Origin: Proteromonas lacertae
Taxonomy: Eukaryota
Assembly: GCA_002245135.1 (NCBI GenBank)
Contig: NGBS01000308.1
Location: 62,001 to 126,000 of the forward strand
Reading direction: 5' to 3'
DNA: 64,000 bases
The position numbers and the translations under genes were made by a program. Below are positions 4,911 to 60,780 of this stretch, piece after piece (within the stretch, counting starts at the first letter, position 1; each line of letters starts with the position of its first letter). The notes beneath the pieces were generated by a model. The model saw only the letters and a program-made list of their open reading frames with translations. It searched no databases and was not told the origin of the DNA.

Positions 4911-7900
4911 ATGGAAGATGAGAAAGTAAGTTACGCTCTTCCTGATGCAGATGAAATAACTAATCCTGTAGATGAAGGAGCGTATGGTAAAGTATTTTTA
5001 GTTAAACATAAAGGTGAAGTGCTTGCTAGAAAAGAAGTAGAATTTGATGGAAAGAGTGATGTTATTGTTGATAACACAATTCATGAAATAGAAATATTAA
5101 AAAAGTTGGATAACATAAATGTAGTTAAACTGGTTGATTCCTTTATTGATACTGAAAAAAATAAAGTTTACATTTACACAAAATACTATGAGAAAGGTGA
5201 TTTATGGAAAGTGATAAAAGAAAAGAGAAAGAAAAAAGAAGATTTCTCAATTGAAGTATATGTTGATTTATATATTATATGAATAGGAGTTAATCCATTT
5301 TATGAAAGATTTAATAAATGGATTGAAATATGTTCATAATAAAGGAATTCTTCATAGAGATTTAAAACCTGGAAATATATTGATTGGAGATGAAAATGAG
5401 TTAATAATAACTGATTTTGGATTAGCAATAGAAAGTGATATAAATGGTGTTAAAATAATAGGAACTCGTAATTATATAGCTCCTGAAATATGGCCAGGAA
5501 CAGATAAATATTCTGCATCATGTGATATATTTTCATTGGGTTGTATTTTATATGAATTATACACATTAAGAATGGCATTCAATGGATCTAAAACTGAAGA
5601 AATTACAGAAAAGATAATCCATAGAAGAGAGTTGAACTTTGAAAGAATAAATGATGAAAGAAATGATTTGATAGAAGAATTAATAAAAGGAATGTTAGAA
5701 AAGAACCCGAAAGAAAGAATGACAATGAATGAAATAGAATATAGAATATTCAATCTATCAGAGAATTTATCTTTACAATTAAATTCATCAGCTTATAATA
5801 TATATCAGAATCATTCCCATCCAGATAAAGATGAAATAATGGGATTAAATTATACTGGAATAGATGGGATAATATATGAAGTGAAACATGGAAATATACT
5901 TTGTAGTAGAAAAGATATATTATATGATAAAAGAAATGAAAATCAAATCAGAAATACAATACATGAAATGGAATTATTGAAAGAGTTAAATCATGAAAAT
6001 GTAGCTCAACTGTTTGATTCATTTATTGATGTAGATAAAAACAGAATTTACACTTACACAAATTATTTTGAGAAACGTAATTTAAGGAAAATGATAGAAG
6101 AAAAGAAAGATAAGAATAATTATTTTTCTCTTCCTGTATATTTCATAATATATATTGTATGAATAGGAGATATTCAATTATATGAAAGATTTAATAAATG
6201 GATTAAAATATATTCACAATGAAGGAATAATTCATCGAAATTTAAAACCGAGTAGTATATTAATAGGATATAGAAACGAATTAATGATCAGTGAATTTGG
6301 ATTAGATTTAGACAGTAGAATACTTGATGTTAATTTAACTGGAACACCAAATTATATAGCTCCTGAATTATGGCAAAACAAATCTCCTCCTCTTCCATAT
6401 TCTGAATCAAGTGATATATTTTCATTGGGTTGTATTTTATATGAAATATACACATTAAGAATGGCATTTAATGAAATCGATACTAAATCAACAATAGAAT
6501 CCATAATCAATAAAACAGAGATTAACTTTGAAAGAATGAATGATGAAAGAAATGCTTTGATAGAAGAATTAATAAAAGGAATGTTAGAAAAGAACCCGAA
6601 AGAAAGAATGAAATTGAATGAAATAGAAGAAAAGATAGATCAAATATCAAAATCATTACAACCATTATCTATAGCACTAAAAACATCAGCTTATAATATA
6701 TATAATAATCATTCCCATCCAGATAAAGATGACGTATTTAAGTGTATAGGAAAATGCAAATATGATAAAGTAGTAGTAGCTATACATAAAGGTGAAGCTT
6801 TATCTAGAAAAGATTTAATTTATGATAGAAAAAATGAAAATCAAATCAGAAATACAATACATGAAATGGAATTATTGAAAGAGTTAAATCATGAAAATGT
6901 AGCTCAACTGTTTGATTCATTTATTGATGTAGATAAAAACAGAATTTACACTTACACAAATTATTTTGAGAAACGTAATTTAAGGAAAATGATAGAAGAA
7001 AAGAAAGATAAGAATAATTATTTTTCTCTTCCTGTATATTTCATAATATATATTGTATGAATAGGAGATATTCAATTATATGAAAGATTTAATAAATGGA
7101 TTAAAATATATTCACAATGAAGGAATAATTCATCGAAATTTAAAACCGAGTAGTATATTAATAGGATATAGAAACGAATTAATGATCAGTGAATTTGGAT
7201 TAGATTTAGACAGTAGAATACTTGATGTTAATTTAACTGGAACACCAAATTATATAGCTCCTGAATTATGGCAAAACAAATCTCCTCCTCTTCCATATTC
7301 TGAATCAAGTGATATATTTTCATTGGGTTGTATTTTATATGAAATATACACATTAAGAATGGCATTTAATGAAATCGATACTAAATCAACAATAGAATCC
7401 ATAATCAATAAAACAGAGATTAACTTTGAAAGAATGAATGATGAAAGAAATGCTTTGATAGAAGAATTAATAAAAGGAATGTTAGAAAAGAACCCGAAAG
7501 AAAGAATGAAATTGAATGAAATAGAAGAAATAGCAAACAAAATATCTCAGCAATTGGAACATAAATCAGATAATGTCAGTGCAAATCAGAGAATCTCATC
7601 ATATACATATTCTTCTATAACATCATGTGAATCAGACAGTCTAGCAAGTTTTTGCGATTATAATTTTTTGATAATAAATATATATTTAGAAAATGCTTCT
7701 TTTATAGGTAATACTTTAAAAGAGATGAGTGAAATGAATGAAGAAGAGTTTAAATCATTTTGGAAAGATGATTATATACCTGTATATATGAAATATCTAA
7801 TTTATTATAGGTTTTATTTCCTTCAATTAATCAAGACAATCCTCCATTATCATTAGAAGATTCAAGAAAATTGAAGCTTAATAAATCCAAATTTTCACCT

Positions 7901-10900
7901 TATTTAAGAAAAATAATCAATTTACTTTTGAAAAGAGACGAAGGAAAGAAAATAGAGAAATCATTCATATTTGAATTATACAAATCATTTTCTTTCGTTG
8001 ATGATATTTTATATTCAATAATACCATTAAAAGCTGAAGTATTTCAATATAGTTTAATTTCATTTTAATAGATAAAAGAGAAAATAGAAAAGAGTAATAA
8101 CGAGATAGAATGTGTAGTTCAACATCAAAATGATTATAAAATGGTGAAAATTCTAGATATTAGTGGAATTAAAGAAAAGAAAATATCAAAATTCTATGAG
8201 AATAACTCCTTCTTGTTAGAATGTTGTTTATCCTTCGTCCATCCTTCTAAAATATTTCAATTGAATAGTTACAATGAATATATGATACTATCAAGAGATT
8301 ATTACTCTAGAGATTTAGAAGAGATGATTGAAAGTAACTCCTTGTTAAGAAGTGACATTTGTGAAATGATATATTCAATATGTGATATATTGTTAATATT
8401 GAGCGAATATTATGTAAAGATAAGCAATTTGAAGAGTTCAAACATAATAGTCAATAATAATAATGTTATATTCATATGTGATATGTTTCTAGATACATTT
8501 AGAAAAGAAGAAGATATGAGATTGTATGATATATGCTTTAAACCTCCAGAACAGTTGAATGGATTAGAATGTAATGATAGAAGTGTGATTTGGTCAATTG
8601 GATGTATATTATATGAAATAATTTATAAGAAATTACCATTTAATGAAGATAATCATATCAACAAAACAAAAGAGAATATTATGAGATGTAAATACAGTAT
8701 TGATGTAGAATGTGATGATGTGATGAAAGAAATGATAGAGAGAATGTTAAAAGTTAAAAGTGAAGATAGATTGAGTTTCAAAGAGTTGAAAAAAGAAATA
8801 ATGAAAATGAGTGAAATACCAAAAGATGGATATAATAATTTGATGGTATGCAATGAAAAGAAAGAAATAACCTACAATTATGATAAGTCAGCTATAGTTT
8901 TTTTTCACCCACCAGAATATTTTCTAAAAAGTGATAAATGGAAAAGTATAATTATATAAATGATTATTATTATGATATTTAAATAGAAAACCGAGATGAT
9001 TTAATAGAATTATACAACGAAAGATATAATGTAAGAATTCTTCTAATATTATGGTTGATGAAAAAATATAAAGGATATAAGCCAATAAAAGATCAGTTAA
9101 AATATCACATTCACCACAAATGTAGAGATGGAAAAGAATGTTATTTAGATAAAATTATTTATAATATTTCGGCTGAATATGATAGATATGAAGTTTCAAT
9201 AAATTCAGACTGTATATGTCAATGTGAAGAAGGAATAAATTACTTATTCAAAATATTGAAACTAATTAATCCAACGAAACTCAAATTTGGTATATTCTTC
9301 ATTTTATAGTTTGCTTAGATAATATTCATATGTCAGTTCAATATCAATCATTGTTCGGATTATGTTTTGCTGAATTATCAAATCTACAGGAATTAGATTT
9401 ATACAGATGTAAACTTACTTCTGGTTTTATAGAAGGTTTAATAAAATCACTTCCATCAATGATGAAAATGAAATATATTAATCTACAGTGTATTTATTAT
9501 CTTTCTTATTTTTTTATGAAATAGCAAATCGAATAGGTTCAAAAGGCTTTAAATTATTACTTCCATATTTACATTTATTAATAAACAATAATAATGAATT
9601 ACTTCTTGATAAAATGAATTTAAATGATGAATCAATGATATTATTATCAGAAGAATTATACAAATATCCAAATATTGAAGTAATAGATATTAGAGATAAC
9701 GATAGAATTGATTCAAAAGGATTAAAAGCCTTATTATTGAAATTCTCCATCAATAAAATAAGATTTGAGCCATATGGAAGTAAAGAGTTATTGATAGATA
9801 AAGACATTCCAGAGATAATAAACCATTTCCTGTTAGTAGTAAATTATACAGATTTACAATTATTTATGAGTAATTCTGGAATTAATGATGATTTTTTCAA
9901 ATCATTCATTTCGTTAAGATCAAATGAATTGAGAGAAGTAGAAGAATTTAATTTGAGTAGTATAATTTCACATTTTTCTGTTATTTAGATAATAAACTAA
10001 CATATAAAAGTATCAAAACATTAATTGACAGTTTATCATCATTTCTTAGTATTAAATATCTTCATTTAGAAGGAAATGAAATAGGAGATATAGGAATGGA
10101 ATTGTTATCTCCATACCTATATTTATTAATAGATAAATATGGTAATATTAATTGCTCTAGTATTATTGTTATTTATTTTTATTTAATAGAAATGGGATTA
10201 TCTTCAGATGGATTTATCTATTTAATTGATGGTTTAGTGAATATAAGAAGAAATGAAATTAGACTGGATATAAGTGGAAATAACATTAATTCAGATGGAA
10301 TAGAATATATTATGAATTATACGAAAGAAAATGATAGAATTAAAGAATTAATTATTTACAGTAAATATATATTATTTTTTATATTCATATTAGATAATCC
10401 AATTGGTAATAAAGGATTTAAATTGTTATTAAATAATTTAAACATGTTAGATCATATATCAGAATTAAATTTGAGTAATATATCAATAGATGATGAAAGT
10501 GTGATAATATTGACAAGTAAAATTGATTCACTTAATAAATGTTATACTATTAATCTAAAAGGAAATGAAATGCATATGAATGGCTTAAAATCAATATGTT
10601 CAAAATCATTAGAAAATGAAGAATATCCATTTATAAAAATGAAATGTTCATCATGGACAAACGAAGAATTGGAATATTATTTGAATTATTTCATTAAAAA
10701 GAAAAGAAAAAATAAATATAACAAAGACTATGATTTATCTAGTATAGTATTTAAATGTATAATGAAATAGACATGAATATCAATGATTCTCATATTTCCA
10801 TTATTCAGCAAATTGCTTTTGAAAAGCTTGATTTATCCAACAACAAAATCAGTTCAAAAGGGTTGAAACAACTAATTTGTAATACAGTTGATTTATCTCA

Positions 10901-11416
10901 TAGAATAATTAGTTATACAGTGATTGGATTAATGTATTCTTTACCAGAAAAATCAGAATGTATATCAATAAATAATAATCCAATTGGAGATGAAGGAATT
11001 GAGATAATATGCAATCATTTAAAGGAATTTGTTGAAATAGGTGATTTTCTTTTCCCAAATCTATTAAATTTTTCAAGTATTAAAAAATATAATGTATATT
11101 TCTAATTTGAATAGACATTGGAATGAGTGAAAAAGGATTGAAAATGTTAATAGAAAAATTAAAAGATTATAAACAATTAGATGAGATAAATCTATCAGGA
11201 AATGAAATGAATGAAGAAGAATTGATATTAATGAAAGACAATCAAGAGGTATTTGAGGATTTAAATGCTTTATCAATAACAGTAAAAGAGAATATAAACA
11301 AATCAAAATTAAAATCATTTCTACAAACATTTTCAACAATTAGTTTTATACAGTTGATTGGAATATCAGAAGAAGAAAAGAGAGAATTATCGAAGGAATT
11401 CTTCAATATTATTTAA
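4911..11416 (+). CDS. Large (~2,000 aa) protein: one intact Ser/Thr kinase (NEK-like), three pseudokinase domains, then RNI/NLRC3-like leucine-rich repeats; 14 introns
   Basis: All ORF pieces from 4911 to 11416 join in frame through ~30 nt GT-AG introns (e.g. 5257-5286). Domain 1 has EGAYG/HRDLKPGN/DFG/APE; domains 2-3 have HRNLKPSS/EFG; domain 4 has SNLKSSN/CDMF; LRRs follow the LxxLxLxxNxIGxxG pattern. Confidence 0.85.
5934..7530 (+). repeat. Direct duplication with 898 bp period (~5934-6632 and ~6832-7530) covering a pseudokinase domain and its intron
   Basis: Sequences starting at 6182 and 7080 read identically; the intron GTATATTTCATAATATATATTGTATGAATAG is present in both copies. Confidence 0.93.
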
Positions 11417-12696: not shown

Positions 12697-15042
12697 TTAC
12701 TTATTTTGAAATCTTTTAGAGTATTCTTCAGATAATTTCTTCACAGCATTCTGTGGAGCTTTTTGGATGTGACTATACTCCATAGTAAACTCACCTCTAC
12801 CTTGAGTACACTGTCTCAACTCAATCGAATAACCAAACATATTAGATAAAGGAACATTTGCTGTAATAGTCATTTCACTATTACCTTTCATTTCAGTATC
12901 TCTAATTTCTCCTTTTCTTCTATTTAATCCACCAATCACAACACCTTGGAATTCTTCAGGAATAACAACTTCAACCTTCATTACTGGTTCTAATACTGTT
13001 GGATTAGCATTTTTAAATGCTTCAGAGAATGCATACTTTGCTGCAGTTCTGAATGCTAATTCACTTGAATCTACTGGATGGTATTGACCATCATTAAATC
13101 AATTAAAGAAAAACAGTAATTTGAATGGAAATAATCAACAACAAAAAAGATATGTTATAACAAATCTAACTCCTTGTACTTTATGTCCAGATATTTTACC
13201 TTCTTCCATTGCTTCCATAAAACCTTTCTCTATTGCAGGTACATATTCTGGCAATATATTCAATCCAACCAATTTATTCACAAACTCTGCTCTAACTTCA
13301 CCATTGTAAGGTAATGGTTCAATGTAACCAATGACTTTAGCATATAAACCTTGACCACCACTTTGTTTCTTATATAAATAATTGAAATCAGCTCTTTGTT
13401 GAATGCATTCACGATAATTCACACGTGGAGGTGATACTTCTACTTCACAATGATATTCCCTTCTTATTCTTTCTAAATATATCTGTAAATGTAGTTCACC
13501 CATTCCATTGATTAATGTTTCATTCTTTTCATGATTATAAGTAACTTTAAATGTAGGATCTTCTCTTTGAAAACGTTTCAATGCTTTTGTGAAATTCTCC
13601 AAGTCTTTTGAATTTTTATTTTTTACTGCAAATGATATAACTGTTTCTGGAATATACATATTACTTAAAGAATATCGAATTTTATCACTTGTGAATGTAT
13701 CTCCACTATTACATTCTACTCCAAACATAGCGACAATTTCTCCAGGACCAACGCCATTTACATCTTCCATATCATTTGAATGCATTCGTACTAATCTTGG
13801 AACTTTAATTGATTTCTTTTCTCTTGTATTAACTATGATTTCTCCTCTTTTAAATAAACCTTGATATATTCGAAGATATGTCAATTGACCGAATTTTCCT
13901 TCGTCTAATTTGAAGGCAAATGCGACTAATGGTAAGTTAATATCTGGATAAAGTTCAACCAATTTATTCTTTAGTTTTCCAGTTTCATCATCTTTTTCTG
14001 TTTTGTTTAAATCAAAAGCATTTTGTTTAGTTTCTTTGGGAGATGGTAAATATTTCACAACTCCATCTAATAATGGTTGAATCTATTAATAAATAAAATA
14101 AAATAAAATAAAATATACTCCTGCATTTTTATAAGCTGAACCAACAAAAACTGGTGCAAATTTCAATCCAATTGTTGTTCTTCTTATTGCTTCATATAAT
14201 TCATCATTTGTTGGATCTTCTTCCATTATAAACTTCTCAGATATTGCATCATCCACTTCCGCTAATTTTTCCACTAACTCTTTTCTTTTCTCTTCCACTA
14301 ATTCTTTCATATCATTGGGTACTTCCTTCTCAACCAAATCGTCACCATTTTTACCTTCATAATAAATAGCTTTTCTTTTAATAATATCAATTGTTCCTTT
14401 GAAATTTGATTCTGAACCTATTGGTAACATCACCATTGCACAATTTAAATGAATTTTATTCCTCAAATCTTCTACTACACGATAAGCATCTGCACTTTGT
14501 CTATCTAATTTATTAACAAAACATAACCTTGGAATATTATATCTTCTCATTTGTCTATCTACAGTGATTGATTGACTTTGAACTCCTGCTACACCACAAA
14601 GGATTAAAATTGCTCCATCTAACACTCTTAAAGCTCTTTCTACTTCAACAGTGAAGTCAACATGTCCTGGTGTATCGATAATATTTATTCTATAATCTCC
14701 CCAATGAGTATATGTTGCTGCAGATTGAATTGTAATACCTTTTTCTCTTTCTAATTCCATTGAATCCATCTTTGCACCAACTCCATCTTTCCCTCTCACT
14801 TCGTGAATTGCTTTTATTCTTCCTGTGTAATAAAGGATTCTTTCAGTTACTGTAGTTTTTCCAGAATCTATGTGTGCAGATATACCAATGTTACGAAGTT
14901 TTTCTATTGGGACAATATCCATATTGCTAGATGCAAAACATCGATATAGATATAAACTAGTGAAGCAAGGCTTGAATGGATTCTGTTTAAGTGATTGAAA
15001 CAATGGCTTAATTGTATTTGGTTTAAAAAAACGACCTATCAT
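12697..15042 (-). CDS. GFM1: Mitochondrial elongation factor G1; 2 introns (one GT-AG, one AT-AA)
   Basis: [56 protein letters not shown]-terminal basic targeting-like leader. Confidence 0.96.
13094..13153 (-). other. Putative minor (U12-type) intron with AT-AA termini, 60 nt
   Basis: Minus strand GTT ATA AC|ATATCTTTT...TTTTCTTTAATTGATTTAA|T GAT GGT; removal gives [19 protein letters not shown]; retention gives two in-frame TGA; no AG exists inside. Confidence 0.85.
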
Positions 15043-20113: not shown

Positions 20114-20776
20114 TTATATCTTTTTAGTACCATAATATTTACATATATCAATTATACATGACTTTATATCTTCATATACTTTCACATTGTGTCTTTCAGC
20201 AACTTCTTTTAAATATGCTCTTGCTCTGTTGATATCCTTCAATTGTTTATCATCTATTTCTTGACCATCAATTGTGCATCCTTGTTTCAACATTTTTAAA
20301 ACTAAATATACCTTCCTACCACTTCCTATTGCTTCATTAGCTTCACCAAGACTTACTAATGCTCTTTTAAACTAGTAATTAAGAAATAAATTAAAAAAAA
20401 TATAATTATGATTAAAATGATATGTTTCATCATCAATGCAAAATAACAACGAATCTGATTCTTCTTTTGCTTTTCTTTCGAGTTCAATGAGTTCTTCTGA
20501 CCATTCTTCAACCTATAGACATTTTATATTGCTTATTAAATACTTGTGGATTATAATATGACACTCCATGCAAATCAAGCATTGGCATGGCTATATCTTT
20601 ACGCCATGTGGTTGGATTGCAAGATCCTCCTAAAAATACATTTGGATGTCCTCGTTTGTACTTTTTGTAAATATATCTACCTGCCAACATAGTACCTACT
20701 AAAGCAACACCACAAGTCTATATCGTTAAGACATAATAAATACAATTAAAGTACTTTTATTGGAATTTGAAGACAT
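20114..20776 (-). CDS. Nucleoside 2-deoxyribosyltransferase-like (Raw-type) protein with N-terminal hydrophobic anchor; 3 introns (one AT-AA)
   Basis: VFLGGSCNPTTWRKDIAMPML...YYNPQVEEW...LFCIDDETRALVSLGEA...GRKVYLV...DINRARAYL, characteristic of the Raw/NDT-like family. Confidence 0.85.
20367..20423 (-). other. Putative minor (U12-type) intron with AT-AA termini, 57 nt
   Basis: Minus strand GAT GAA AC|ATATCATTTT...ATTTCTTAATTACTAGTTTAA|A AGA GCA; removal restores IDDETRA; retention gives an in-frame TAG; using the internal AC or AG as acceptor gives a frameshift and stop. Confidence 0.82.
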
Positions 20777-30732: not shown

Positions 30733-33700
30733 ATGTTTTTATCACAACTAAGGCTGTGCGTATTAGTTTATTTGTTTCATAGCAGTTATTTGTAATTATA
30801 TTAACACATATTGTGAAGAATTTAGATACAGGGATCACTATATACAGAAAATGGTTAATTCTGATTATATCGATATATCACCGTTAGTTAATGTTTCTCC
30901 AAAATCCATAGTTAGTAAATCTGAATTACCAGATGGTTTACATTTCTGTACAGGAAGGTTTTATGGTGTTATGAAAGGGATAGTCAGAAATTATACAGTT
31001 ACTGTAGAAGCAACATATGAAGATAAGATCTGTAGAGAAGTTTTGGCTTTTAGTTGTATATTTATTTACTTTTATTAATCTTATAGCATATCCCAATATT
31101 AGTGATTGTGATTATAATTTAAATGATTCTATGTTTTATGTAAATCAAATAATCCAGCCAATTACACTGAATTGTTCATATGAATTATCATCTGTAACAG
31201 TAACTCCCTCATTGCCAGAAGGATTATCTATCAGTAATAAGAATGGTGCAATATCTGGAAAACCTGTTTCTATATCACCAAGTCATTTATATTCAATAAC
31301 AATTAAGTCATTTAAAATCTCGAAAACGTTAAACGTAACAATCAAAGTATTATCACTGGAAAAAAGCAGTAGAAATAGAAAATTAGATAATTATAAAGAT
31401 ATAATAGAAATGGTTGGTATAGAAATGGATATAATAGAATATTCAATTCAATCAGTTCCAACACTTAAAGAATTTGAAAAATATAAAATAATCACCAGTA
31501 GAGTGATCAATACGATGGAAATATACAATAATAATAGTGAAATAAATCCATTATTTAATCTACCTCCATCTATCTTTAATTTAAATCAATATCATGCCAT
31601 TAAATTTCACGGTTATATATTACCTCAGTTTTATGGAAATTATGAATTTAGAATAATCGCAAATGATGGTTACAATCTCAATTTTCCAGATAAGAAATCA
31701 GGTACAATATCTCAACGTGTAAAAAGTGGTTTAACTGAAAGGAAGGTGATGTTTAGAACAGATGATAATCCACTGGAATTTAATTTAATAACGACTAGAT
31801 TTTTGAATTTCAATTTATTTCGATTTGATTATAGATTTTCAACTTCTAAAGAGTATGAATTAATATCTTCTAGAAATTGTATTATTCGAATGTCTAATAA
31901 CATTACAAATGCGTTTTATACCAAAAGTAATAATATAATAATAGAATCAAATAACAATAATGCAAATGTTATATTATATCCGTTTTATAAAGGAACAGTA
32001 ACTAATTATTATGTGATGGATAGTTTACCCGCTAATATTATATTAAATATAACTACTGGAATATTAACAATATCAAATCCATCTACTGGAAAAAGTATGA
32101 CACAAAATATTGAAGTGTTTTTTGGCAATGATTTTACATTTGTTAAAGTGACTTTAAGGATAATATTTTTATCAAATAATCATCACATTATTACGAATAA
32201 CAGTGGAATCTTAACAAAATTTTATTCAATTGAAAGTCAAAGTGAATTTCGTTCAGATGATATCACTCTATCACTTAGCAATATGTATTCATTGAAGAAG
32301 AGTTATATTTCAACCATAAATGAAATGAATAATGAATGTAATGAATTATCTAATATTTGGATTAATCTTCCTTATGATCTATCACTTCCATTTATTGCAG
32401 ATTGGAAATCGTTATTTTATTTCCCATTAAGTTGGGATTATTGTTTCTATATGGAAATCTCTTCAACATCTTTATCATCACAAATGAATGATATTTCATT
32501 TATATTTATTGATGGAGTAAATATAACAACTCGAAATATCAATCACAATATGGCATGTAGTTATATATTGAAAGGATATCATTTAATTGATTTTCATGCA
32601 GTGCTATATACATATAATAGAAATATTCATTTTTATATTAATTCTACTTCAGTTAGTTTGTTGAATTATGGTAATAAAGATAAGGGAATTGTTAATGTGG
32701 AAGACTATATTATTCCTTATTATGAATATAATAATTATATGAATGGATTTATTATCAAAGAAAAAGAAGAGATCATTTATCCTAATAATAATAATGAAGA
32801 AATATTCTATTATAAATATAGAAAGTATGTTGGATATAAGTATATAGTTCTTCCAGTTAATGTGCCAATATTTAACTATGATAATATCAATCCAATTGAA
32901 TATACTGTAGTTTCACCTAATATTAATATCTTAAATTCTATTGGCTTATATTTAGATAGACAAAATGGTAGAATCAGTGGAATTCCAACTGTAGATTATT
33001 ATCCTGAAACGGATATAATTATAACAATAATTAGTAATGAACATATTAATTATAATACAACCATAACACTATCAATTGAACAGTATGAATTAAGTGATGA
33101 TGATGTTGAATATAATAGTTATGAAGTCAGTGTTACCTTATGGAAATTAATAGAATTAATACCTACAATCAATGAAACAGTTGTGGTAGATAATTTTACA
33201 ATAATTTCTGGAAATTTACCGAATTTTCTAGAAATTAATCCATTAACTGGTGTAATAAGTGGAATAGCTAATGAAATGGTGAATAATAGAGATGTAACTA
33301 TATTAATCTCAAATCATGGTAGTTCAATCCAAAAAACTATTCGTTTCTATATTAATAAAGATTGTAAAGGAGATATTGATCCAATATTTTTCTATTTCAA
33401 TTTCACTCGTTTTAGAAATCAAGTTTTAACTATTGAAGGTAGTGTTAGTGGAAATATATTTTCCGCTTCTGGTACGAATAAAGAGGAGGATAGAATAATC
33501 TGTCAATCCACCAATGAAACTATCAGAATATTTATCTCTAGAGATGATGTAAGAGATAATCCATTTTTATCATTACACTATTATCCAGATGTTCATTTAT
33601 TCAATGGAAATGTATTTAATGAATCAACAAAGGAACAACATCAATTTGAAATAACATTTCCAACTTTTTATGACAAGCCAAACTTTATTGATATAAATAG

Positions 33701-36186
33701 TACCGTTACATTTACAGTTTTTGATGAAATAAAGTTCATTCCATCTATTGGACCACCTTATTCATTATGTAGAATTGATCCAAATTATTTAGCCCAATGG
33801 TTTAACGTTTAATAACAAATCTTGTGAAATTAGTGGAAATTCGTTATATTCAACGGAAACTAATCACCACAATATTGACTATTTAATGACACTATCCAAT
33901 CCTCATTCATCCATCAATAAACAATTTCAATTAAAAATAGAAAATTGCAATAACAACGATAGTGAATTGATTGAGTTATATATTATAATAATTACAACAA
34001 TTACTATAAGAATGGATATAAATTGATGAATATTAGAATATTGGATTATAGAAGAGAAATAATTATGGAAATAAATGATTTTAAAGTTTATAATAATCAG
34101 AATTTCATTACTCAATATTATTGTATAAAAAGAGATGTTTATATCGTTGATCTTACTTTTGTTAATGATAGAAGGAATATGAATGGAATTGATTTAAAAG
34201 AAAGTAATTCAAATATAGAAATATATATTACAACATTCAATGGGTTTTTATTGTTTTATTTCAATTCAAAATATTCATTTGATATTCGTCCAAGGAGTTA
34301 TGATAATTTAAATGAAATGATAATAATTGAAGATGAAATGAATATGAATAGATTAATAATAAATTATAATTCAAGTATTTGGTATTCAGATAGATTCTAC
34401 GATGAGTGGTTAGAAACAAAATACAATTTTAAAAAGACATTTGTTGAGAAAAAAATATTCTCAATTCCATTTTATAAGTATAATAATGTTCAAAGATATT
34501 ATAAAACTGAGTTTAATATTGATGAGAATATGTTTTATATATCTTCAATAGTCCAATTATCTGTTTATTACAGAGAAGGAGTTATTATTTATTTAAATAA
34601 TAATAAAATATATATTGACAGCATTAACCAAAATCAATTTGGAGTAAATCATGAAGAATTATATAACATGTTTTATATCACATTTTCTATTTTGGAATTG
34701 AACTTATTAATGAATTATATTAATGTAGAAATTCACCAGAGTCAAGAGAATTATGTGAAAGATAATAATGAAGATTATTTCTCCTTATCTTTAGATATTA
34801 TCGATCAAAAATGTTTTGAATATAATAGTAAAATTCCTTTTATTCTTTCTAGTAATGTTGAAAGATATGATAATATTAATTTATATAAATTACTACAACC
34901 TTTGAAATCTGAAGATTTTGTTATTATTTTTAATCCAAAAATTAATTTCACTTTGGATATATTTTTACCTAATTATTATTACATCATTATTAATCGTTAT
35001 ACTGTGATAAGTAGTAATTTTAATGATATGTTAATAAATATACCAATATCATGGAGATTATATGGTAATAAATAACAGCAATAATGAAAATGATAATATC
35101 AATGAAGTTGTTTTAGATGAGCAGAATGATGTGGTTTTTGAAGGTAATTATGAATCAAAAATCTTCTATTTACCTCCACGAAGTTTATCATTTAATCACT
35201 TTAGAATAATTTTCACAAAAGTCGGTATAAATGATAATAAAGATGATGATGTTATACAACAATCAGTATTATCATTAAATTCAATTGTATTTGAAGGATG
35301 TAATATACAATATTGTATATATGAAGGACATGATCCTGTAGAAATTGGAGATACAATTCGATTGAATTGTCCATCAGATGAAACTGGTTATATTGAAAGA
35401 AAATGTTTGTTAAATTTTGAAACTAAAAAACCATATTGGAGCAATCCTTACAATCACTGTAAAGTAAATCCTCCAAAAATATTTGAAATAATTCCGTTAG
35501 AAAGTAACGGATATACTGGATATCCAATAGAAACACTGAATTTATTATGTTCTGGTAGAAATGTTGGATATAATGTAACGCCTAGTTTACCAGATGGAAT
35601 AAAGTTAATTGCCTCTCAAATCAACGGAATTAGTCAATATGAAATGAATATATTTTATAACGTAAGTTGTTGTAATGATGGTGGATGTTTAACAAAATCA
35701 TTTAGAATAAATGTGAAATTAGCTGCTTGTGCAAATGATAATATAACAAAATTACATGATAATAATAATAGAAATAATATTAGAATAAAGCTAAGAAAGT
35801 CATATAAAGATGATGGTGATGATAATGATGAGGACTACTGGCCAACTACAATGGTTGGTAATACGAGTGTAATAAACTGCAAATCTCCATTAATTGGTGT
35901 GAAAGAAAGATCGTGTTATTTTGATAGTTATCCAGTCTGGGGTAAAGTGATAGATAAGTGTAGAGAACCTGGTGATAAAGATTCTGATGTTGGAACTATT
36001 GTTGGTGTTATTATTGGTGTATTGGCTGTATTGGTGTTGATTGTTGGAGTGATCTGTTGTTTGAAGTCTAAACGGATTAAACGCCAATCATTAATGATAA
36101 ATAATAGTAAATCAAGAACATATTCTAATACAAGGCGGAATAACAACGGTGGTATTAATTTAAGTGAATTCGGTTTCATACAATAA
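30733..36186 (+). CDS. Large type I surface protein with putative-Ig (He_PIG) repeats, PA14-like regions, Cys-rich modules and C-terminal TM; interrupted by ~4 frameshifts
   Basis: Repeated LPxGL...GxISG motifs; FHGYILP...YEFRIIANDG; CPSDETGYIERKC; TM VGTIVGVIIGVLAVLVLIVGVICC; frame breaks near 30776, 33809, 33975-34020 and 35071 not explained by introns. Confidence 0.75.
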
Positions 36187-38799: not shown

Positions 38800-41700
38800 A
38801 TGGATCATCGATTTGATAAGCCACAAGTCTGTATGATTATTCCTATTATTTATATCTACATTTTTATAGTAACTCCATACAGATCCCTTCGAAAGTTTAA
38901 AACCTTCTCACCATCTAACAAATTAAATAATCAAAATGTAATGAACAATAATGCTTCTATTGGTCCAGAGATAAATATTCCTTCGTATATTGAAGATGAA
39001 AAAACTACTAGAACGCCAAATGCTTCACCTAATCTATTCCCATCTCCACCTTTTACACCACCTCCTGATAATATTAGACCTAACAAAAATACATCAACAT
39101 TAGAAGAAAGCAAAAAATCATCTCCTGAACCAAATGAAAACTCTCACAAAGTATCAAAAGAAGTAGAAATTAGAAATGAAGAAAGTGTTATTATTAAACC
39201 TCCTCCACGTCCTGTAGTTAATACAATATCATTTATCTCAACACCCAAAATAGAGAATAAGAATAAGAAGTTATTAAGTGCATCTACAAATAACCAAATA
39301 TTAGAATTTTACACTCCTCCACCAAAAGAACAAATAAAACAAGAGAAAATCACATATACATCTGTAGAACCAATATTAATAAAAGAAGAATCATTACATA
39401 CAAATAGAGAATCAAGAGTAATAAAAAGAACAATTAATGAAAGTTATATCAATGAAGATAATGAAGAAATTAACCAAGAAAATATCAAGCCTAGTCAAGC
39501 CTCAAAATATCCATCTTATATTCCATTCAATTGGAAAACTTTTGTAATATTTGCAATTATTCAAATCATATCATTTCTTATTTATACTTTAATAATGTGG
39601 TTATTCGTTTGGTCATATATTAAGAATCATTATAGTATTAGAACAACAGAAAATGGTGAATTATCTGTTAATTCATTATCTATATATAAAGGTGATTTTG
39701 AAGTGAATGATATTTATACAAATGCAGTGGTGAATGAAATGAATAACGTAGAAAAATCCTCTAAGAATCATACATTTACATTGACAAAACAATTGATTGA
39801 GAATAATAAAATCAGCAACAAAAATACCACAATCTCAACAAAACAGGTAGAAAACAGAGAAATGAAGAAATCTTCAAAATCACTTCGTCATAATCCAAAA
39901 ATAGAAAGAAATCTAGCCGTTACATACGATACAACTCATCACTTATCTATAGATCCATCCACAGACGAATTATACATCTCTTCACACAGATTAACCAGTG
40001 ATGAGTTATTAATTGATGGAAATAGTTATTTTAAAGGAAATATTATAATGGGAGATCCATTGAAGAATACAACGATATTAGTGAATGGAAATATTGTTTT
40101 TAATACACATAATATAACTGTAAAAAATATAAATATTGAAAATGGATTAATTTCTAATTCAATGATAAAAGGAAATTCAATTATTTTTGATAGAAATACG
40201 AAATATAAAGTGCCATTTATCAATGATGAAGGAAAATTCGATTTTTTAAATGATTTTATCTATTCGAATGGTATTTTAACAACGAAATCCATTCAAAGTA
40301 AAGAAATAAATAATATTGAGAATATAAACAAATTAGAACCTTCTGTATTACATATCTATGATTCTATTAAAACTACAAATTATTTATTTGAAGAAGGGAA
40401 TAATAAATTTACACTGAATGATGGATTAATATCAGATAAGATTCAAACTTTATTCCTTAAAAGTAAAACTTCAGATCCAATCACATTTGAAAGTGATATA
40501 AGTGGAAATAATGTTAATAAAATATCCAAAATCAATAGAATAGAAGTAAATGAAATAAAAGGGAATGATGAAATAATTAAAGTAAAAAGTGATTTAGATT
40601 TTGGAACTAAAAGTATTAAAATGATTGAAAGAATTGATAATATGAAAGAAATGACAATTGGAACAATTAATATAATAGATTCGTTACATGTCAAATCAAT
40701 TGATAATGGTATTAGTTCTATTGATATGAATAGTGATGTAAATATGAAGAATAAAGATATTAATAATATAAAATCATTATATTCGAATACAATCAATGTA
40801 GAAACACTTCAAAGAGGTAATAGTGATAATACTATTAAAGTGTCAAGCAAATTGAATTTACAGAATACATATGATATTGTAAATGTAAGGGAAATACAAT
40901 CAAATAATATAAAAGTAAATAAAATAGAGAGTAAAGACGGTTCTACTCCATTACAAATAAGTAGTGATGTTAATATAAACAGAATAACAGCCGGAATAAT
41001 CAATACAAATACACTTAAAGCAGAATATAAAATAGATGTTAATACTGTATTTGATATGAATAATAATGATATAAATAATGTAAAATTGTTAAACTCTAAA
41101 GAAACAAATATTAATGAATTACATGTTAAATCTATTGATAATAATGCTAATGCTATTGATATAAACAGTGAAATGAATGTAAAAAAAATAATGAAAGTGA
41201 ATACTATTGAAAGTCTTAATCCCTCTGATTCTATTGAAATAAAGAGTAATATAAAAACAGATCATATATTTTCAGCAAGTAGTATTAAGGTTGAAAGTAT
41301 TGAAGGAGGTGCAAGTGGAAATATTAAAATATCTTCTAATGTTGATATTGGCACTTATAAACTGTCAGTTAGTAATTTGAATATGGGTTCAATTGCTTTA
41401 AGTAATTCAGTTTCTACACCTTTAATTACAGGACCATATTCTGATATTAAAATTAATAAAGATTTGAATTTACAGTCAAAATCTATGAGTAATATAAAGC
41501 AAATAACATCTTCAACACTTAATATAGCAAATCTTCAAAGTAGTAGTGGTTCTGGAGGTAATATTAAAGTGAATAGTGATTTAGATATGTTAAATAATGA
41601 TATTAGTGGGATAAAAGAAATGAGTAGTGGAATAATTAATGTTGGCATAATTCAAAGTAGTGGAATAATTACAGTGAAAGGTAATTTGGATTTATTAAGT

Positions 41701-42114
41701 ATTAATGATATTACGAATGTGAATAATATGAAATCAAATGAGTTGTTTGGTAGTACATTGAGTATTGACAATTTAAAAACATTTACAGGAAGTTCAATCA
41801 ACATATTGAGTGGTATAAATATGAATTCAATGGATATAAGTGGAATAAGCACAATTAGTAGTGGAACAATCAATGTTGGAACTATAATGAGTAGTAGTGG
41901 AAGTACAGGAACAATAATGATATATAGTAATTTAGATATGTTAGGAAATAGTGTTTTACATGTTAATAAACTACAAATTCCAACAGTAATATCTCCAGTT
42001 TCATCTACTTGTGATAAAATAGGAGAAATATATTTTGATTTAACCAATGATAAGATTTATATTTGTAATGGAAGTAAATTTTTGGAATATTCTATTACAC
42101 CTTCATCTCCTTAG
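38800..42114 (+). CDS. Type II membrane fibre-like protein: Pro-rich cytoplasmic N-terminus, TM, degenerate beta repeats, C-terminal Cys domain; 1 in-frame intron
   Basis: TM FVIFAIIQIISFLIYTLIMWLFVW; repeats of the SDLDM.NNDI..I type; C-terminus CDKIGEIYFD...KIYICNGSKF. Confidence 0.8.
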   Translation: MDHRFDKPQVCMIIPIIYIYIFIVTPYRSLRKFKTFSPSNKLNNQNVMNNNASIGPEINIPSYIEDEKTTRTPNASPNLFPSPPFTPPPDNIRPNKNTSTLEESKKSSPEPNENSHKVSKEVEIRNEESVIIKPPPRPVVNTISFISTPKIENKNKKLLSASTNNQILEFYTPPPKEQIKQEKITYTSVEPILIKEESLHTNRESRVIKRTINESYINEDNEEINQENIKPSQASKYPSYIPFNWKTFVIFAIIQIISFLIYTLIMWLFVWSYIKNHYSIRTTENGELSVNSLSIYKGDFEVNDIYTNAVVNEMNNVEKSSKNHTFTLTKQLIENNKISNKNTTISTKQVENREMKKSSKSLRHNPKIERNLAVTYDTTHHLSIDPSTDELYISSHRLTSDELLIDGNSYFKGNIIMGDPLKNTTILVNGNIVFNTHNITVKNINIENGLISNSMIKGNSIIFDRNTKYKVPFINDEGKFDFLNDFIYSNGILTTKSIQSKEINNIENINKLEPSVLHIYDSIKTTNYLFEEGNNKFTLNDGLISDKIQTLFLKSKTSDPITFESDISGNNVNKISKINRIEVNEIKGNDEIIKVKSDLDFGTKSIKMIERIDNMKEMTIGTINIIDSLHVKSIDNGISSIDMNSDVNMKNKDINNIKSLYSNTINVETLQRGNSDNTIKVSSKLNLQNTYDIVNVREIQSNNIKVNKIESKDGSTPLQISSDVNINRITAGIINTNTLKAEYKIDVNTVFDMNNNDINNVKLLNSKETNINELHVKSIDNNANAIDINSEMNVKKIMKVNTIESLNPSDSIEIKSNIKTDHIFSASSIKVESIEGGASGNIKISSNVDIGTYKLSVSNLNMGSIALSNSVSTPLITGPYSDIKINKDLNLQSKSMSNIKQITSSTLNIANLQSSSGSGGNIKVNSDLDMLNNDISGIKEMSSGIINVGIIQSSGIITVKGNLDLLSINDITNVNNMKSNELFGSTLSIDNLKTFTGSSINILSGINMNSMDISGISTISSGTINVGTIMSSSGSTGTIMIYSNLDMLGNSVLHVNKLQIPTVISPVSSTCDKIGEIYFDLTNDKIYICNGSKFLEYSITPSSP

Positions 42115-42236: not shown

Positions 42237-45200
42237 TTATGGTGAAGATGATAATTTTTGTAATTGTACTTTCATCCATTGATTGTTTAAACAAATAACA
42301 ATTCCATTATTACCATCTAAATAAATAGCACCTTCATTATCTATATTACAATCTGATGGTTTATTTGGTAATTTAAGCATTGTACCAATAGTGACTGTTC
42401 CTGATGATACAGTTCCAGCTTTAATCTTTCCATCACTTCCTATATTTATTTCTTTTTCTTTAAGTGTTGAACTTCCTAATGTTAATGTTCCTGCTGATAT
42501 TTTACCATCATTTCCTAAGTTCAGATTCTTGTCACTTAATGTTGTTCCACCTAATGTTAATGTTCCTGCTGATATCTTTCCATCATTTCCTATATTTATT
42601 TCTTTTTCTTTAAGTGTTGAACTTCCTAATGTTAATGTTCCTGCTGTTATTTTACCATCACTTTTTAAATCTAATGATTTATCACTTAGTATAGTGTTTG
42701 CCAGAGTTAATTTTCCAGCTTTAATCTCTCCATCATTTCCTATATTTATTTCTTTTTCTTTAAGTGTTGAACTTCCTAATGTTAATGTTCCTGCTGATAT
42801 CTTTCCATCATTTCCTATATTTATTTCTTTTTCTTTAAGTGTTGAACTTCCTAATGTTAATGTTCCTGCTGTTATTTTACCATCACTTTTTAAATCTAAT
42901 GATTTATCACTTAGTATAGTGTTTGCCAGAGTTAATTTTCCAGCTTTAATCTCTCCATCATTTCCTATATTTATTTCTTTTTCTTTAAGTGTTGAACTTC
43001 CTAATGTTAATGTTCCTGCTGTTATTTTACCATCACTTTTTAAATCTAATGATTTATCACTTAGTATAGTGTTTGCCAGAGTTAATTTTCCAGCTTTAAT
43101 CTCTCCATCATTTCCTATATTTATTTCTTTTTCTTTTAGTGTTGAACTTCCTAATGTTAATGTTCCTGCTGTTATTTTACCATCACTTTTTAAATCTAAT
43201 GATTTATCACTTAGTATAGTGTTTGCCAGAGTTAATTTTCCAGCTTTAATCTCTCCATCACTTCCTATATTTATTTCTTTTTCTTTTAGTGTTGAACTTC
43301 CTAATGTTAATGTTCCTGCTGATATCTTTCCATCATTTCCTATATTTATTTCTTTTTTCTTTAAGTGTTGAACTTCCTAATGTTAATGTTCCTGCTGTTA
43401 TTTTACCATCACTTTTTAAATCTAATGATTTATCACTTAGTATAGTGTTTGCCAGAGTTAATTTTCCAGCTTTAATCTCTCCATCACTTCCTATATTTAT
43501 TTCTTTTTCTTTTAGTGTTGAACTTCCTAATGTTAATGTTCCTATATTTATAATACTGTTTGAATTCATATTAAAATCATTATGAACATTAATTGGACTA
43601 TTTGCAACATTAGGATATTTACTATTTATATCACCTACATATAAAAATTTACTCAATTTCATATCTCTATCAACAATAACATCTGATATAGCACTTATTG
43701 TATTACATATAATTTTGTTAGCAGTTACACTATTTGTTGAAGCATCAACATTTGAATAAAATTGTATAGCAGTAGTATCTTTTCCTTCTAATGATTTAAT
43801 CTTGATTATTTTATTACCATTCATATCAAGATCTCCCATTCTAATTATTTTTTTACCATTCATATCAAGATCTTCCATTCCAATTATTTTATGATTATTC
43901 ATATTAATATCACTACTTACAACAATTTCTTTATTATCAGAGGATTGTATTTCTTTCAATGCTAAAGGACTATGAATATAAATTGGACTAGCAGCTACAC
44001 TTTCTATAGTTCCTACATTTAACTTATTGTTTATAGTAACTGTTGATGCTGTAATTATATTTATATGCATATTATCAATATTCTTTATACCTTTTATATT
44101 TAGAAAATCTAAATCATTGTGAATTTGTATATCTGCTGCAACATGATTACTTTTTAAATGATCAACAGTGATTGTGCCAGTTATTATAATACCATTATTA
44201 CTCATACTCAATGTTCCAGCACTTATTATTCCACCTTTCAAATCTAATAATTTATCACTTAATGTTGTTCCACTATTTCCCAATTTTATTGTTCCAGATG
44301 TTATTATTCCATCAGATTTTAAATCTAATAATTTGTTACTTAATTTCGTTCCATCATTTCCTATTTCGATTGTACCTGTACTGATCTTTCCATCATTACC
44401 CATATTCAATGTTCCAGCACTGATTGTGCCAGTGAATATTTGACCACCACCACCCATTTTCAATGTACCAGCACTTAACTCTTTTATATTATAGATATTA
44501 CCATTAGACATATCTATATTATTCAGTATCTTCATATCACTACCACTTAATACTTTTATGTTATTCACACTTAATGTATTTCCAGATAATTCATTAGCTT
44601 CAAACTGTTTTATTTTTATCAGACTGTATTTATCTTGAAAATTCATATCACTGTTGATCATTATTGAACCACTAGCACCACCACCATTATTTTCGATTGT
44701 ACCTATATTCAATGTTCCAGAACTCATTCTTCCATTTGCACCTAAATTCAATGTTCCAGCACTTATTATTCCACCTTTCAAATCTAATAATTTATCATTT
44801 AGAGTTGTCTTTCCTGATCCTAATTCGATTGAACCTGTATTTATATACCCTGCATTACCCATATTCACAGTTCCGGCACTGATTGTTCCACTCGCTCCTA
44901 GATTCAATGTTCCAGCTGTTATTATTCCATCAGATTTTAAATCTAATAATTTGTTACTTAATTTCGTTCCATCATTTCCTATTTCGATTGTACCTGTACT
45001 GATCTTTCCATCATTACCCATATTCAATGTTCCAGCACTGATTGTGCCAGTGAATATTTGACCACCACCACCCATTTTCAATGTACCAGCACTTAACTCT
45101 TTTATATTATAGATATTACCATTAGACATATCTATATTATTCAGAATCTTCATATCACTACCACTTAATACTTTTATGTTATTCACACTTAATGTATTTC

Positions 45201-54200: not shown

Positions 54201-54656
54201 TTAAACTGTTTAAACTAAGCATTGAAGCAGATATGGTAATGTTGTAATAGTATCTCATATAACTGTAAACAAATGCCCACACGATGAATGTGTATAAAAG
54301 ACAAATAAATAGGACGATAGCAGCTACTGATTGTAAAAAACAAGAATTATACTAAATTTTAAGCACTCTTTACAATGATGTTTCTTATAAGATAAATCTA
54401 CAGGTTTTAAAAACTGTCTATCCATCTTTTCTACAGCTTCTGAATATGGAACTACAGGAGTATAGTCTTTATCTATAAACTCAGGAGCAACACTATGAAC
54501 AACATTGGGTCTTACTGATAAATATCTGCCATGAGAATTATGTTCTTTGACAGTTTTGATAGAATTAGGAACTAGTCATAATTAAAAAATTAATATACCT
54601 CTAGCTATTGGAGGGGGAGCTTTTGGAGAAGGATAAGCCCATTTTTCTGAAGACAT
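42237..54656 (-). CDS. Giant (~4,100 aa) type II membrane fibre-like repeat protein; 2 introns near the 5' end and 1 frameshift at ~43355
   Basis: ATG 54656 MSSEKWAYPSP, two GT-AG introns, TM AIVLFICLLYTFIVWAFVY, 3649-codon ORF; repeats continue after the 1-nt shift to CNIDNEGAIYLDG...IVICLNNQW...SSP TAA at 42237. Confidence 0.85.
42420..43545 (-). repeat. Second coding tandem array made of 75 bp subunits (150 bp pairs)
   Basis: Alternating GTLTLGSSTLKEKEINIG(S/N)DG and AGKLTLANTILSDKSLDLKSDGKIT units. Confidence 0.9.
45160..51960 (-). repeat. Coding tandem array of 29 modules: 19 x 228 bp (type A) and 10 x 246 bp (type B) sharing a constant 41-aa block
   Basis: Constant KDISGIKELSSGTINIGTIQSSNGAGNDIKINSDLNLQGTY followed by A (NLLNVNEISGG...KLTS) or B (SVLNALTLGG...KVDN); periods measured e.g. 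45361-45589 (228 bp) and 51661-51907 (246 bp). Confidence 0.93.
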
Positions 54657-60300: not shown

Positions 60301-60780
60301 TGAATCTAATAATACATTGGATGGCTTTAAATCACCGTGATAAATGTTTAATTTATGTATTGATTGAATTCCATCCGCTATGCTGCTTAATAAACTATAT
60401 GTTCTAAATTCTGCAACTGTATCTTTTGTGTCAATAGCTATGATATTAGAAGGATATTCTGACATTGTCACTACTATAGTGTTTTTCACAGCAGCTGTTG
60501 CATGGTAATGGATTATATGTGCGTTGTCTTGAGAACTGACCTTTGTTACTTTCTCTAAAAACTTTTGAATCACTCCTTCTTCTATTTTATCAGCTTTCAT
60601 CATTTTTACTATTTCTTGTTCCTTAGTACTCTTATTTTTAACTAAATACAAATTACCATCTGCACTACCACTTAACTCTCTGATAATCTAAACGAATTAT
60701 AATTCATATAACAATACTTGATAGTTCAATGATGGATCTAACCCGCTTAGCAAAGAAGCATTTGAAGCACCTGCACCCAT
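57349..60780 (-). CDS. Putatively N-myristoylated kinase-like domain plus long RNI/NLRC3-type LRR array; 3 introns, ~5 frameshifts
   Basis: MGAGAS start; HGDLKPSN, SDYC in place of DFG, YMSPE, DIWSYG; more than 20 28-aa LRRs LxxLxLxxNxIGDxG. Confidence 0.8.

What the first reader, a model, noticed from the sequence alone, without database searches (positions are those of the whole stretch)
13094..13153. AT-AA minor-type intron in mitochondrial EF-G1
Seen: the EF-G frame stops at TGA 13135 and resumes 60 nt after the donor; the gap has no AG. The only splice that restores the conserved domain IV motif ([19 protein letters not shown]) is AC|ATATCTTTT...TTTTCTTTAATTGATTTAA|T. Known: U12 introns have RTATCCTT donors and a TCCTTAAC branch point 10-20 nt from the 3' end, and normally end in AC or AG; AT-AA ends are rare. 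Inference: an essential gene here depends on a minor spliceosome using C-depleted signals and an AA acceptor.
Basis: partly seen in the sequence, partly recalled or inferred. Interest (0 to 1): 0.85.

Follow-up and report, generated by a model that had tools for sequence, protein, structure and literature searches.

The report
AT-AA minor introns in Blastocystis relative
A 60-base interruption in the mitochondrial EF-G gene of an AT-rich protist related to Blastocystis begins with AT and ends with AA, as does a second one 7 kb away, and both are likely removed by the rare 'minor' splicing machinery, which in this lineage may use AA ends routinely instead of the usual AC.

Summary
The 60-nt gap (13153..13094, minus strand) has no AG, and AT-AA is the only recognised intron end pair that keeps EF-G's conserved D-G motif. 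Its donor and branch site are U12-like and occur in 0 of 45 GT-AG introns of the window. An assembly slip is unlikely. Gene calls from relatives 90-96% identical break at the same codon (12 of 12), 9 with the read-through expected of the canonical U12 donor, and all 4 that read across the acceptor require a final A. I found a second AT-AA intron (20423..20367) and no AT-AC intron. A gene tree puts the organism next to Blastocystis, whose minor spliceosome is published and mostly AT-AC. AT-AA is a known rare subtype, so the single intron is not new. What may be new is AA as a lineage's usual end (n = 2), and a likely U2-type intron at the same site in sister sequences. No RNA, reads or snRNA genes were available. 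The scan earlier noted AT-AC, not AT-AA, minor introns in two other protists.

The parts
14119..15042 (-). Mitochondrial EF-G1 exon 1 (basic, acid-poor N-terminal extension, likely a targeting peptide, then the GTPase domain)
   Evidence: ORF; Pfam GTP_EFTU E 6e-56; the three exons give one 749-aa frame
14083..14118 (-). EF-G1 intron 1, ordinary GT-AG, 36 nt
   Evidence: sequence; gene model
13154..14082 (-). EF-G1 exon 2 (domains II, III and most of IV), ends inside a Thr codon (phase 2)
   Evidence: Pfam; eukaryote-named top hits are mitochondrial EF-G
13094..13153 (-). The finding: 60-nt AT-AA intron, U12-type signals, two in-frame stops, no AG
   Evidence: same break in 12 of 12 close relatives
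13146..13153 (-). U12-type 5' splice site ATATCTTT (+6 C to T)
   Evidence: 0 of 45 GT-AG introns have TATC[CT]T; 9 relatives read Y-P-F, as expected of the canonical CC donor
13102..13110 (-). Predicted branch site TTCTTTAAT, candidate branch A at 13104 or 13103 (-11, -10)
   Evidence: 7 of 9 match to consensus plus two G-U wobbles; TTCTYTRAT decoded in a relative from two reading frames
13094..13095 (-). AA acceptor
   Evidence: only in-frame A-N end after the branch site that avoids a stop; final A required by M-M-V-N read-through in 4 relatives
12697..13093 (-). EF-G1 exon 3 (end of domain IV, domain V, stop)
   Evidence: Pfam EFG_IV 91-121 and EFG_C
20367..20423 (-). Second AT-AA intron (57 nt, phase 2, donor ATATCATTTT), found in this study
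   Evidence: T-R-[AGS] at the junction in 13 of 14 homologues, and the AT-AG alternative would delete the R
20378..20386 (-). Predicted branch site of the second intron, TTTCTTAAT, As at -14 and -13
20114..20776 (-). Host gene of the second intron: nucleoside 2-deoxyribosyltransferase-like protein (PF15891), with two GT-AG introns and the AT-AA intron
   Evidence: Pfam E 9e-8; one open frame after splicing

Best explanation
The 60-nt AT-AA gap in mitochondrial EF-G1 is likely a U12-type (minor) intron removed by the minor spliceosome, and its final A is conserved in relatives rather than an error. Shown: the gap, its signals, the same break in relatives, and a second AT-AA intron in the window. 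Inferred steps: U11 and then U6atac read the ATATCTTT donor; U12 pairs with the branch site through five Watson-Crick pairs and two G-U wobbles, bulging an A at -10 or -11; the 3' end is set mainly by distance from the branch, with no need for AG, so AA is used. Retention would stop EF-G1 inside domain IV, so mitochondrial translation would depend on minor splicing if the gene is single-copy. Each of the two introns keeps a different one of the two branch-site Cs, which suggests that U12 keeps its GG and that AT drift is absorbed by wobble rather than by a compensated snRNA.
For: Junction fixed by D-G conservation and the absence of AG. Signals absent from 45 of 45 kept GT-AG introns, and the gap is longer than 44 of them (median 34 nt), as minor introns are longer than major ones in Blastocystis ST1 (mean 42 vs mostly 30). 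12 of 12 Logan gene calls at 90-96% identity break at the same codon while the intron interior differs completely (inferred lengths 41, 67-70). 9 read Y-P-F, the product of N-TAY-CCN-TTY (canonical U12 donor), and 3 read Y-L-F like the window. 4 of 12 read across the acceptor as M-M-V-N, which needs a last intron base A; in 3 of these the preceding Ile-Ile-Ile codons exclude AC and AG from the last 10 bases. Branch A distance fits the 11-13 nt optimum roughly (PMC3584512). Second AT-AA intron. Named Blastocystis, the sister group in the MIPS tree (98/97), has all four minor snRNAs and 346 U12 introns (PMC5608401).
Against: No RNA, reads or genome: splicing and the snRNA genes are untested, and Rfam finds nothing in the window. 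In relatives only protein is held, so the first intron base (A or G) and the penultimate base are not fixed. The acceptor evidence rests on 4 proteins from 10 contigs, and the two-frame branch-site decoding on one single-contig variant. The branch sites are weak (duplex -3.0 and -2.8 vs -5.7 kcal/mol for the consensus) and also fit the looser U2 branch pattern. A 26-nt GT-AG intron outside my set of 45 (20743..20718) has TCTTAAC near its end. The second intron's +6 A breaks the published 5' rule. Ordinary donors here are GTAT in 43 of 45 (partly built into my gene finder) and 3 of 45 have +5 C, so U2 and U12 donors lie unusually close in this genome.
Confidence: 0.85

Rival explanations
1. The intron is real and AT-AA but is removed by the major (U2) spliceosome. 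The genome's usual GTAT donor has taken G+1 to A, paired with a change at the last base, as in the rare U2-type AT-AC introns.
For: Major donors here start GTAT in 43 of 45 and 3 of 45 have +5 C. U2-type AT-AC introns exist (PMC1557818). The branch motifs fit a U2-type pattern too. The second intron's donor departs from the U12 rule at +6. Sister gut sequences appear to carry a GT intron at the same codon.
Against: TATC[CT]T occurs in 0 of 45 major introns but is kept at this site in 12 of 12 relatives by read-through, 9 in the canonical CC form, while the rest of the intron has diverged. Both AT introns carry +5 C and a U12-like branch site. I saw no U2-type AT-AA example in the passages read.
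Confidence: 0.08
2. The AA end is an assembly or base-calling error hiding an ordinary AT-AC or AT-AG minor intron (a dropped or miscalled C would not disturb the frame).
For: No reads could be checked. Intron length is free, so a lost base would be invisible. AT-AC is 196 of 253 minor introns in Blastocystis ST1.
Against: Four independent gene calls from two diverged groups of relatives need a final A, and three exclude AC and AG. A second intron in the window ends the same way.
Confidence: 0.03
3. The 60 nt are removed at a shifted junction or by a non-spliceosomal route (TA-AT cut, self-splicing, ribosomal bypass), or the gene is a broken copy.
For: A TA-AT cut gives the same peptide, and 7 other shifts keep D-G.
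Against: The gap barely folds (-1.7 kcal/mol) and matches no Rfam family. U12 signals sit exactly at the AT boundary. The exons are intact and 90-96% conserved while the gap diverges, which argues against a dead copy.
Confidence: 0.04

Closest known systems
U12-type AT-AA introns of animals and plants (human RASGRP4, FLJ21106, MSH3; PMC1557818 Table 3; PMC10639083 section 30 and Suppl. Table S1)
   Same: AT-AA ends with RTATC donor and a branch site near the 3' end; can be conserved between species (2 of 3 human cases are AT-AA in mouse too).
   Different: There AT-AA is 1.1% (animals) and 3.0% (plants) of conserved minor introns, or 4.5% and 10.4% of AT-AN ones. Here it is 2 of 2 in real genes of a 64-kb window, with no AT-AC.
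Minor introns of Blastocystis ST1 (PMC5608401; PMC10639083)
   Same: Nearest characterised lineage; very short introns, minor ones longer than major; mostly A-type; about 1% of introns; four minor snRNAs present.
   Different: ST1 is 55% GC and 77% AT-AC (196 of 253). This genome is 27% GC and both A-type introns found end in AA. Unnamed sister sequences, probably human-type Blastocystis, seem to have a GT (U2-type) intron at the EF-G site.
Transformed minor system of Physarum polycephalum (bioRxiv 10.1101/2020.10.12.336362)
   Same: +6 T donors, T-shifted branch sites and many non-canonical ends (AT-AA is 27% of its non-canonical U12 introns).
   Different: Physarum uses a TTTGA branch motif with compensating U12 changes and has a vast minor-intron expansion. 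Here the branch sites still fit the human U12 motif by wobble, and minor introns are about 2 in 50.
U12-to-U2 intron conversion (PMC3584512 section 19; PMC10639083)
   Same: One codon position appears to carry a minor intron in one lineage and a major one in its sister.
   Different: The minor state here is AT-AA, so a switch needs changes at both ends. The direction is not established.

Membership tests
U12-type (minor) intron | 5' splice site RTATCCTT, one C at +5/+6 may be T (PMC2846911) | tested here: met
   EF-G intron ATATCTTT; 9 relatives read Y-P-F as for the CC form. The second intron has +6 A and fails this strict rule.
U12-type (minor) intron | Branch site able to pair with U12 nt 18-24 | tested here: met
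   5 Watson-Crick and 2 G-U pairs in both introns against the human motif of PMC3201867. Weak, and tested against human, not the organism's own U12.
U12-type (minor) intron | Branch A close to the 3' end (optimum 11-13 nt) | tested here: met
   As at -11/-10 and -14/-13; about -16 in one relative
U12-type (minor) intron | Ends in the AT-AN or GT-AN classes | tested here: met
   AT-AA; class described in PMC8280824
U12-type (minor) intron | Position and signals conserved in relatives | tested here: met
   12 of 12 close relatives break at the same codon with Y-P-F or Y-L-F read-through; protein-level evidence only
U12-type (minor) intron | Removed from the mRNA at this junction | not testable with these tools
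   no run was listed, so no reads could be laid
U12-type (minor) intron | U11, U12, U4atac, U6atac and U11/U12 proteins in the genome | not testable with these tools
   no genome held; none in the 64-kb window; published for Blastocystis ST1 and ST7
U2-type (major) intron | GT/GC-AG ends (rarely AT-AC) with this genome's T-AG acceptor | tested here: not met
   no AG in the gap; 43 of 45 major introns end TAG
Mitochondrial EF-G1 | Five EF-G domains, closest to mitochondrial EF-G1, N-terminal extension | tested here: met
   Pfam; eukaryote-named hits are mitochondrial EF-G or MEF1; 749-aa frame with a basic extension of about 40 residues; import not tested
Blastocystis (genus) | Placement inside the genus rather than beside it | tested here: inconclusive
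   MIPS is sister to a clade holding named Blastocystis (98/97); no Proteromonas or low-GC Blastocystis row was in the tree

The most novel reading that the evidence does not exclude
In this AT-rich lineage beside human-type Blastocystis, AT drift has turned AA into the usual 3' end of A-type minor introns, so its minor spliceosome works mainly on AT-AA introns with wobble-paired branch sites; and the EF-G intron has switched class between this lineage (U12, AT-AA) and its sister (U2, GT donor).
Probability: 0.45. Interest if true: 0.7.

Novelty: new variant of a known kind. Interest (0 to 1): 0.5.

Why it matters
One AT-AA minor intron is ordinary. A genome in which AT-AA is the rule would be a natural test of how the minor spliceosome picks its 3' end. 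It would show that the terminal A-C pairing can be dropped lineage-wide and the site set by distance from the branch. It would also mean that pipelines which accept only GT-AG, GC-AG and AT-AC miss or truncate these genes, here a core mitochondrial translation factor. An intron that is minor in one lineage and major in its sister bears on the open question, raised in PMC10639083, of whether Blastocystis minor introns are old or recently gained.

Tried and rejected
No genome is held, so snRNA and genome-wide intron searches were impossible. No sequencing run was listed; this is no evidence either way, and no reads were laid. Rfam gave 0 matches in the window at gathering and at E up to 1. The metagenome scan gave 2 loci at 30-36% identity, not relatives. 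The first EF-G search (longer proteins) showed no named Blastocystis in the best 120. The 50%-cluster search added no other lineage breaking at this codon: of 59 breaking proteins, 41 are the relatives and the other 18 end, shift frame or misalign elsewhere. Most of those proteins are bacterial or come from spliced models, so this says little about how old the intron is. A quick EF-G tree of 29 rows left the gut clusters unplaced; the careful tree of 22 rows and a shorter region joined them to the window at 95/93. The rows left out were Lentinula, Bryopsis, Cardamine, Cystoisospora and three unnamed ones. GT-AG and AT-AC splices at the EF-G site were rejected because they delete D-G. A perfect-looking GTATCCTTT at 21332 (minus) was rejected as coding: the frame is open through it. 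The AT-AA call at 43322 lies in a spurious gene antisense to the 3984-aa frame and was not counted. Of 64 introns predicted, I dropped 18 as doubtful or antisense by my own judgement before the counts. For the second gene, the PDB and Atlas searches and a viral protein scan gave nothing useful, and 2 of 16 fetched loci did not show the motif in frame. Not found in print: a lineage with mainly AT-AA minor introns, or any account of minor introns in low-GC Blastocystis or Proteromonas (searches; 'minor' and 'U12' occur 0 times in PMC12129017). The library lacks most subscription papers, and supplements other than those named were not read.

Full report
Observation. The minus strand carries a three-exon mitochondrial EF-G1 gene (15042..12697, 749 aa). 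Between exons 2 and 3 lies a 60-nt gap, 13153..13094, with no AG and an in-frame TGA at 13137-13135. Pfam EFG_IV covers positions 1-91 before the gap and 91-121 after it. Of 424 EF-G-like proteins fetched, 345 reach this column and 286 continue past it, 269 of them with D-G. Of 16 possible 60-nt removals, 9 keep D-G and 2 give I-T-D-G. Only the AT-AA cut has ends of a known class, and all frame-keeping GT-AG and AT-AC options delete D-G or more.

Comparison with the genome's own introns. A small gene finder trained on the window predicted 64 introns. I dropped 18 as doubtful or antisense, leaving 45 GT-AG introns and the candidate. The 45 have a median length of 34 nt, 43 start GTAT (partly built into the model) and 43 end TAG. 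None has TATC[CT]T, and none reaches 7 of 9 on the U12 branch consensus; the candidate does both, with As at -11 and -10. Both signals arose together in 1 of 200,000 shuffles of the gap. Against human U12 nt 18-24 (PMC3201867, passages) the branch site forms 5 Watson-Crick and 2 G-U pairs, though more weakly than the consensus (-3.0 vs -5.7 kcal/mol). A +6 T donor is within a published U12 rule (PMC2846911, passages).

Organism. No genome is held. The window is 26.6% GC. Its intronless MIPS gene is sister, at 98/97 in a 33-row tree, to a clade holding a named Blastocystis protein and a cluster that includes ST1 NandII. Low-GC Blastocystis (21-23%) and Proteromonas (27%) are both described (PMC12129017, passages and section 5). 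Neither was in the tree, so I say only 'beside human-type Blastocystis'. Blastocystis ST1 has 346 U12 introns, typically AT-AC, and all four minor snRNAs (PMC5608401, section 8 and S1 Table); another count gives 253, of which 196 are AT-AC (PMC10639083, passages).

Relatives make an assembly error unlikely. A search with the end of exon 2 found intron-blind gene calls from Logan contigs: 9 proteins on 24 contigs at 95-96% identity and 3 proteins on 9 contigs at 90%. All 12 leave EF-G at the same Thr. The 9 continue Y-P-F, which is what a phase-2 RTATCCTTT donor reads as; the 3 continue Y-L-F like the window. The tails are otherwise unrelated. Four of the 12 (10 contigs) run across the acceptor in a shifted frame as M-M-V-N. 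The first M requires A as the last intron base (C or T would give L, G would give V), and the read-through is compatible with exon 3's D-G-Q-Y-H-P. In three of them the preceding Ile-Ile-Ile codons leave no room for AC or AG in the last 10 bases. The other 8 stop inside the intron and say nothing on the acceptor. Two variants that differ by a 2-nt slip can be decoded in two frames; only 1 of 4 shifts is consistent, and it gives the branch site TTCTYTRAT, as in the window. Limits: this is protein evidence, the first and penultimate intron bases are not fixed, and the decoding rests on one single-contig variant.

A likely class switch. Two large unnamed clusters (32 and 88 members; 30 of 120 examined, about 58-61% identity) break at the same codon in 29 of 30 cases: 26 with an immediate stop, 2 with W-A-W, 1 with Y-V-F. 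These fit phase-2 GT donors (GTAA, GTAG, GTGA, GTGG, GTATGT) and none fits TATC. A careful EF-G tree joins them to the window's group at 95/93 (22 rows); a quick tree of 29 rows did not resolve this. They are probably human-type Blastocystis, which is an inference: no member is named. U12-to-U2 is the expected direction (PMC3584512, section 19), but nothing here orients it.

A second AT-AA intron. Reading the remaining genes by eye showed another AT-start gap in a PF15891 gene: 20423..20367, 57 nt, phase 2, donor ATATCATTTT, branch site TTTCTTAAT with As at -14 and -13. Homologues from viral and prokaryotic contigs have T-R-[AGS] at the junction in 13 of 14 cases (16 loci fetched, 2 without the motif in frame, 3 identical over this stretch). 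The AA end keeps the R; the AT-AG end three bases on deletes it, and the GT-AG options delete more. A rerun of the gene finder that treated AA, AC, AG and AT alike chose AA at both sites and called no AT-AC among 71 introns; a third AT call lies in a spurious antisense gene. The second donor breaks the strict rule at +6, so its U12 status is weaker. The looser pattern used for both introns was set after seeing them (9 and 8 of 200,000 shuffles; 0 of 45 major introns).

Mechanism. Shown: gaps, signals, conservation. Inferred: the minor spliceosome pairs U11 and U6atac with the donor and U12 with the branch site, and picks the 3' end by distance (optimum 11-13 nt, no pyrimidine tract; PMC3584512, passages). 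After the EF-G branch site, only the AA at 13094 keeps an open frame; the AT one base on would shift it, so some mis-splicing is predicted. A-type minor introns are reported to be spliced less efficiently in human cells (PMC8280824, passages). One branch site keeps the first of the two consensus Cs and the other the second, so an unchanged U12 with wobble explains both better than a compensated U12 as in Physarum (bioRxiv 10.1101/2020.10.12.336362, passages). That EF-G1 is needed for translation in the genome-bearing mitochondrion-related organelle is my own knowledge; copy number was not testable.

Novelty. AT-AA is the commonest non-canonical minor end in animals and plants (PMC10639083, section 30): 823 and 690 conserved introns, or 4.5% and 10.4% of AT-AN ones (supplement rows). 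Human cases are listed in PMC1557818 (passages). The single intron is therefore a new member of a known subtype in a group known to have the machinery (PMC11347168, passages, also reports minor introns in B. hominis but found no minor components outside gyristan stramenopiles). The first intron was selected for being odd; the second was not, and would be AA with a chance of about 0.05-0.10 at those rates. That is suggestive of a lineage-wide AC-to-AA shift, not proof. I found no such lineage in searches of a library that lacks most subscription papers. Earlier scan notes describe AT-AC minor introns in two other protists and nothing on this genome.

Verdict. A real, conserved AT-AA intron, U12-type with probability about 0.85. 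Interest 0.5: ordinary as a single case, notable if AA is the lineage's rule (probability about 0.45).

Noticed in passing
window 20367-20423 (-): Second AT-AA, U12-like intron in a PF15891 gene, with a +6 A donor.
   Followed up: yes
proteins P0273, P0274, P0397-P0423: Unnamed, widespread EF-G gene calls break at the same codon with read-through that fits GT donors: a likely U12/U2 class switch.
   Followed up: partly
window 20718-20743 (-): A 26-nt GT-AG intron, shorter than any in my kept set, with TCTTAAC near its 3' end.
   Followed up: no
window 20114-20776 (-): The PF15891 protein closely resembles proteins on viral contigs and in prokaryote genome bins over its first 100 residues; origin by transfer not examined.
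   Followed up: no
window 4911-11416 (+): One predicted 2040-aa gene with several tandem kinase domains (near-identical repeats with identical 31-nt introns at 6136 and 7034) followed by leucine-rich repeats; a kinase gene and an LRR gene also lie side by side at 57750-60780 (-).
   Followed up: no
window 42237-54222 (-) and 38941-42114 (+): A 3984-aa and a 1058-aa repetitive, nearly intronless frame with no convincing Pfam family and strong GC skew; a similar gene starts at 63424 (+).
   Followed up: no
window 21332 (-): A perfect GTATCCTTT with an AG 41 nt on lies inside the open frame of a dual-specificity phosphatase gene; treated as coding.
   Followed up: partly
whole window: TGTTTGTT occurs only 3 times per strand and predicted genes end in encoded stops, unlike human Blastocystis subtypes and like the tortoise isolates and Proteromonas described in PMC12129017.
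   Followed up: partly
window 30851-34026 (+) and 55182-57261 (+): Two genes with He_PIG Ig-like domains, one behind a BTB domain.
   Followed up: no
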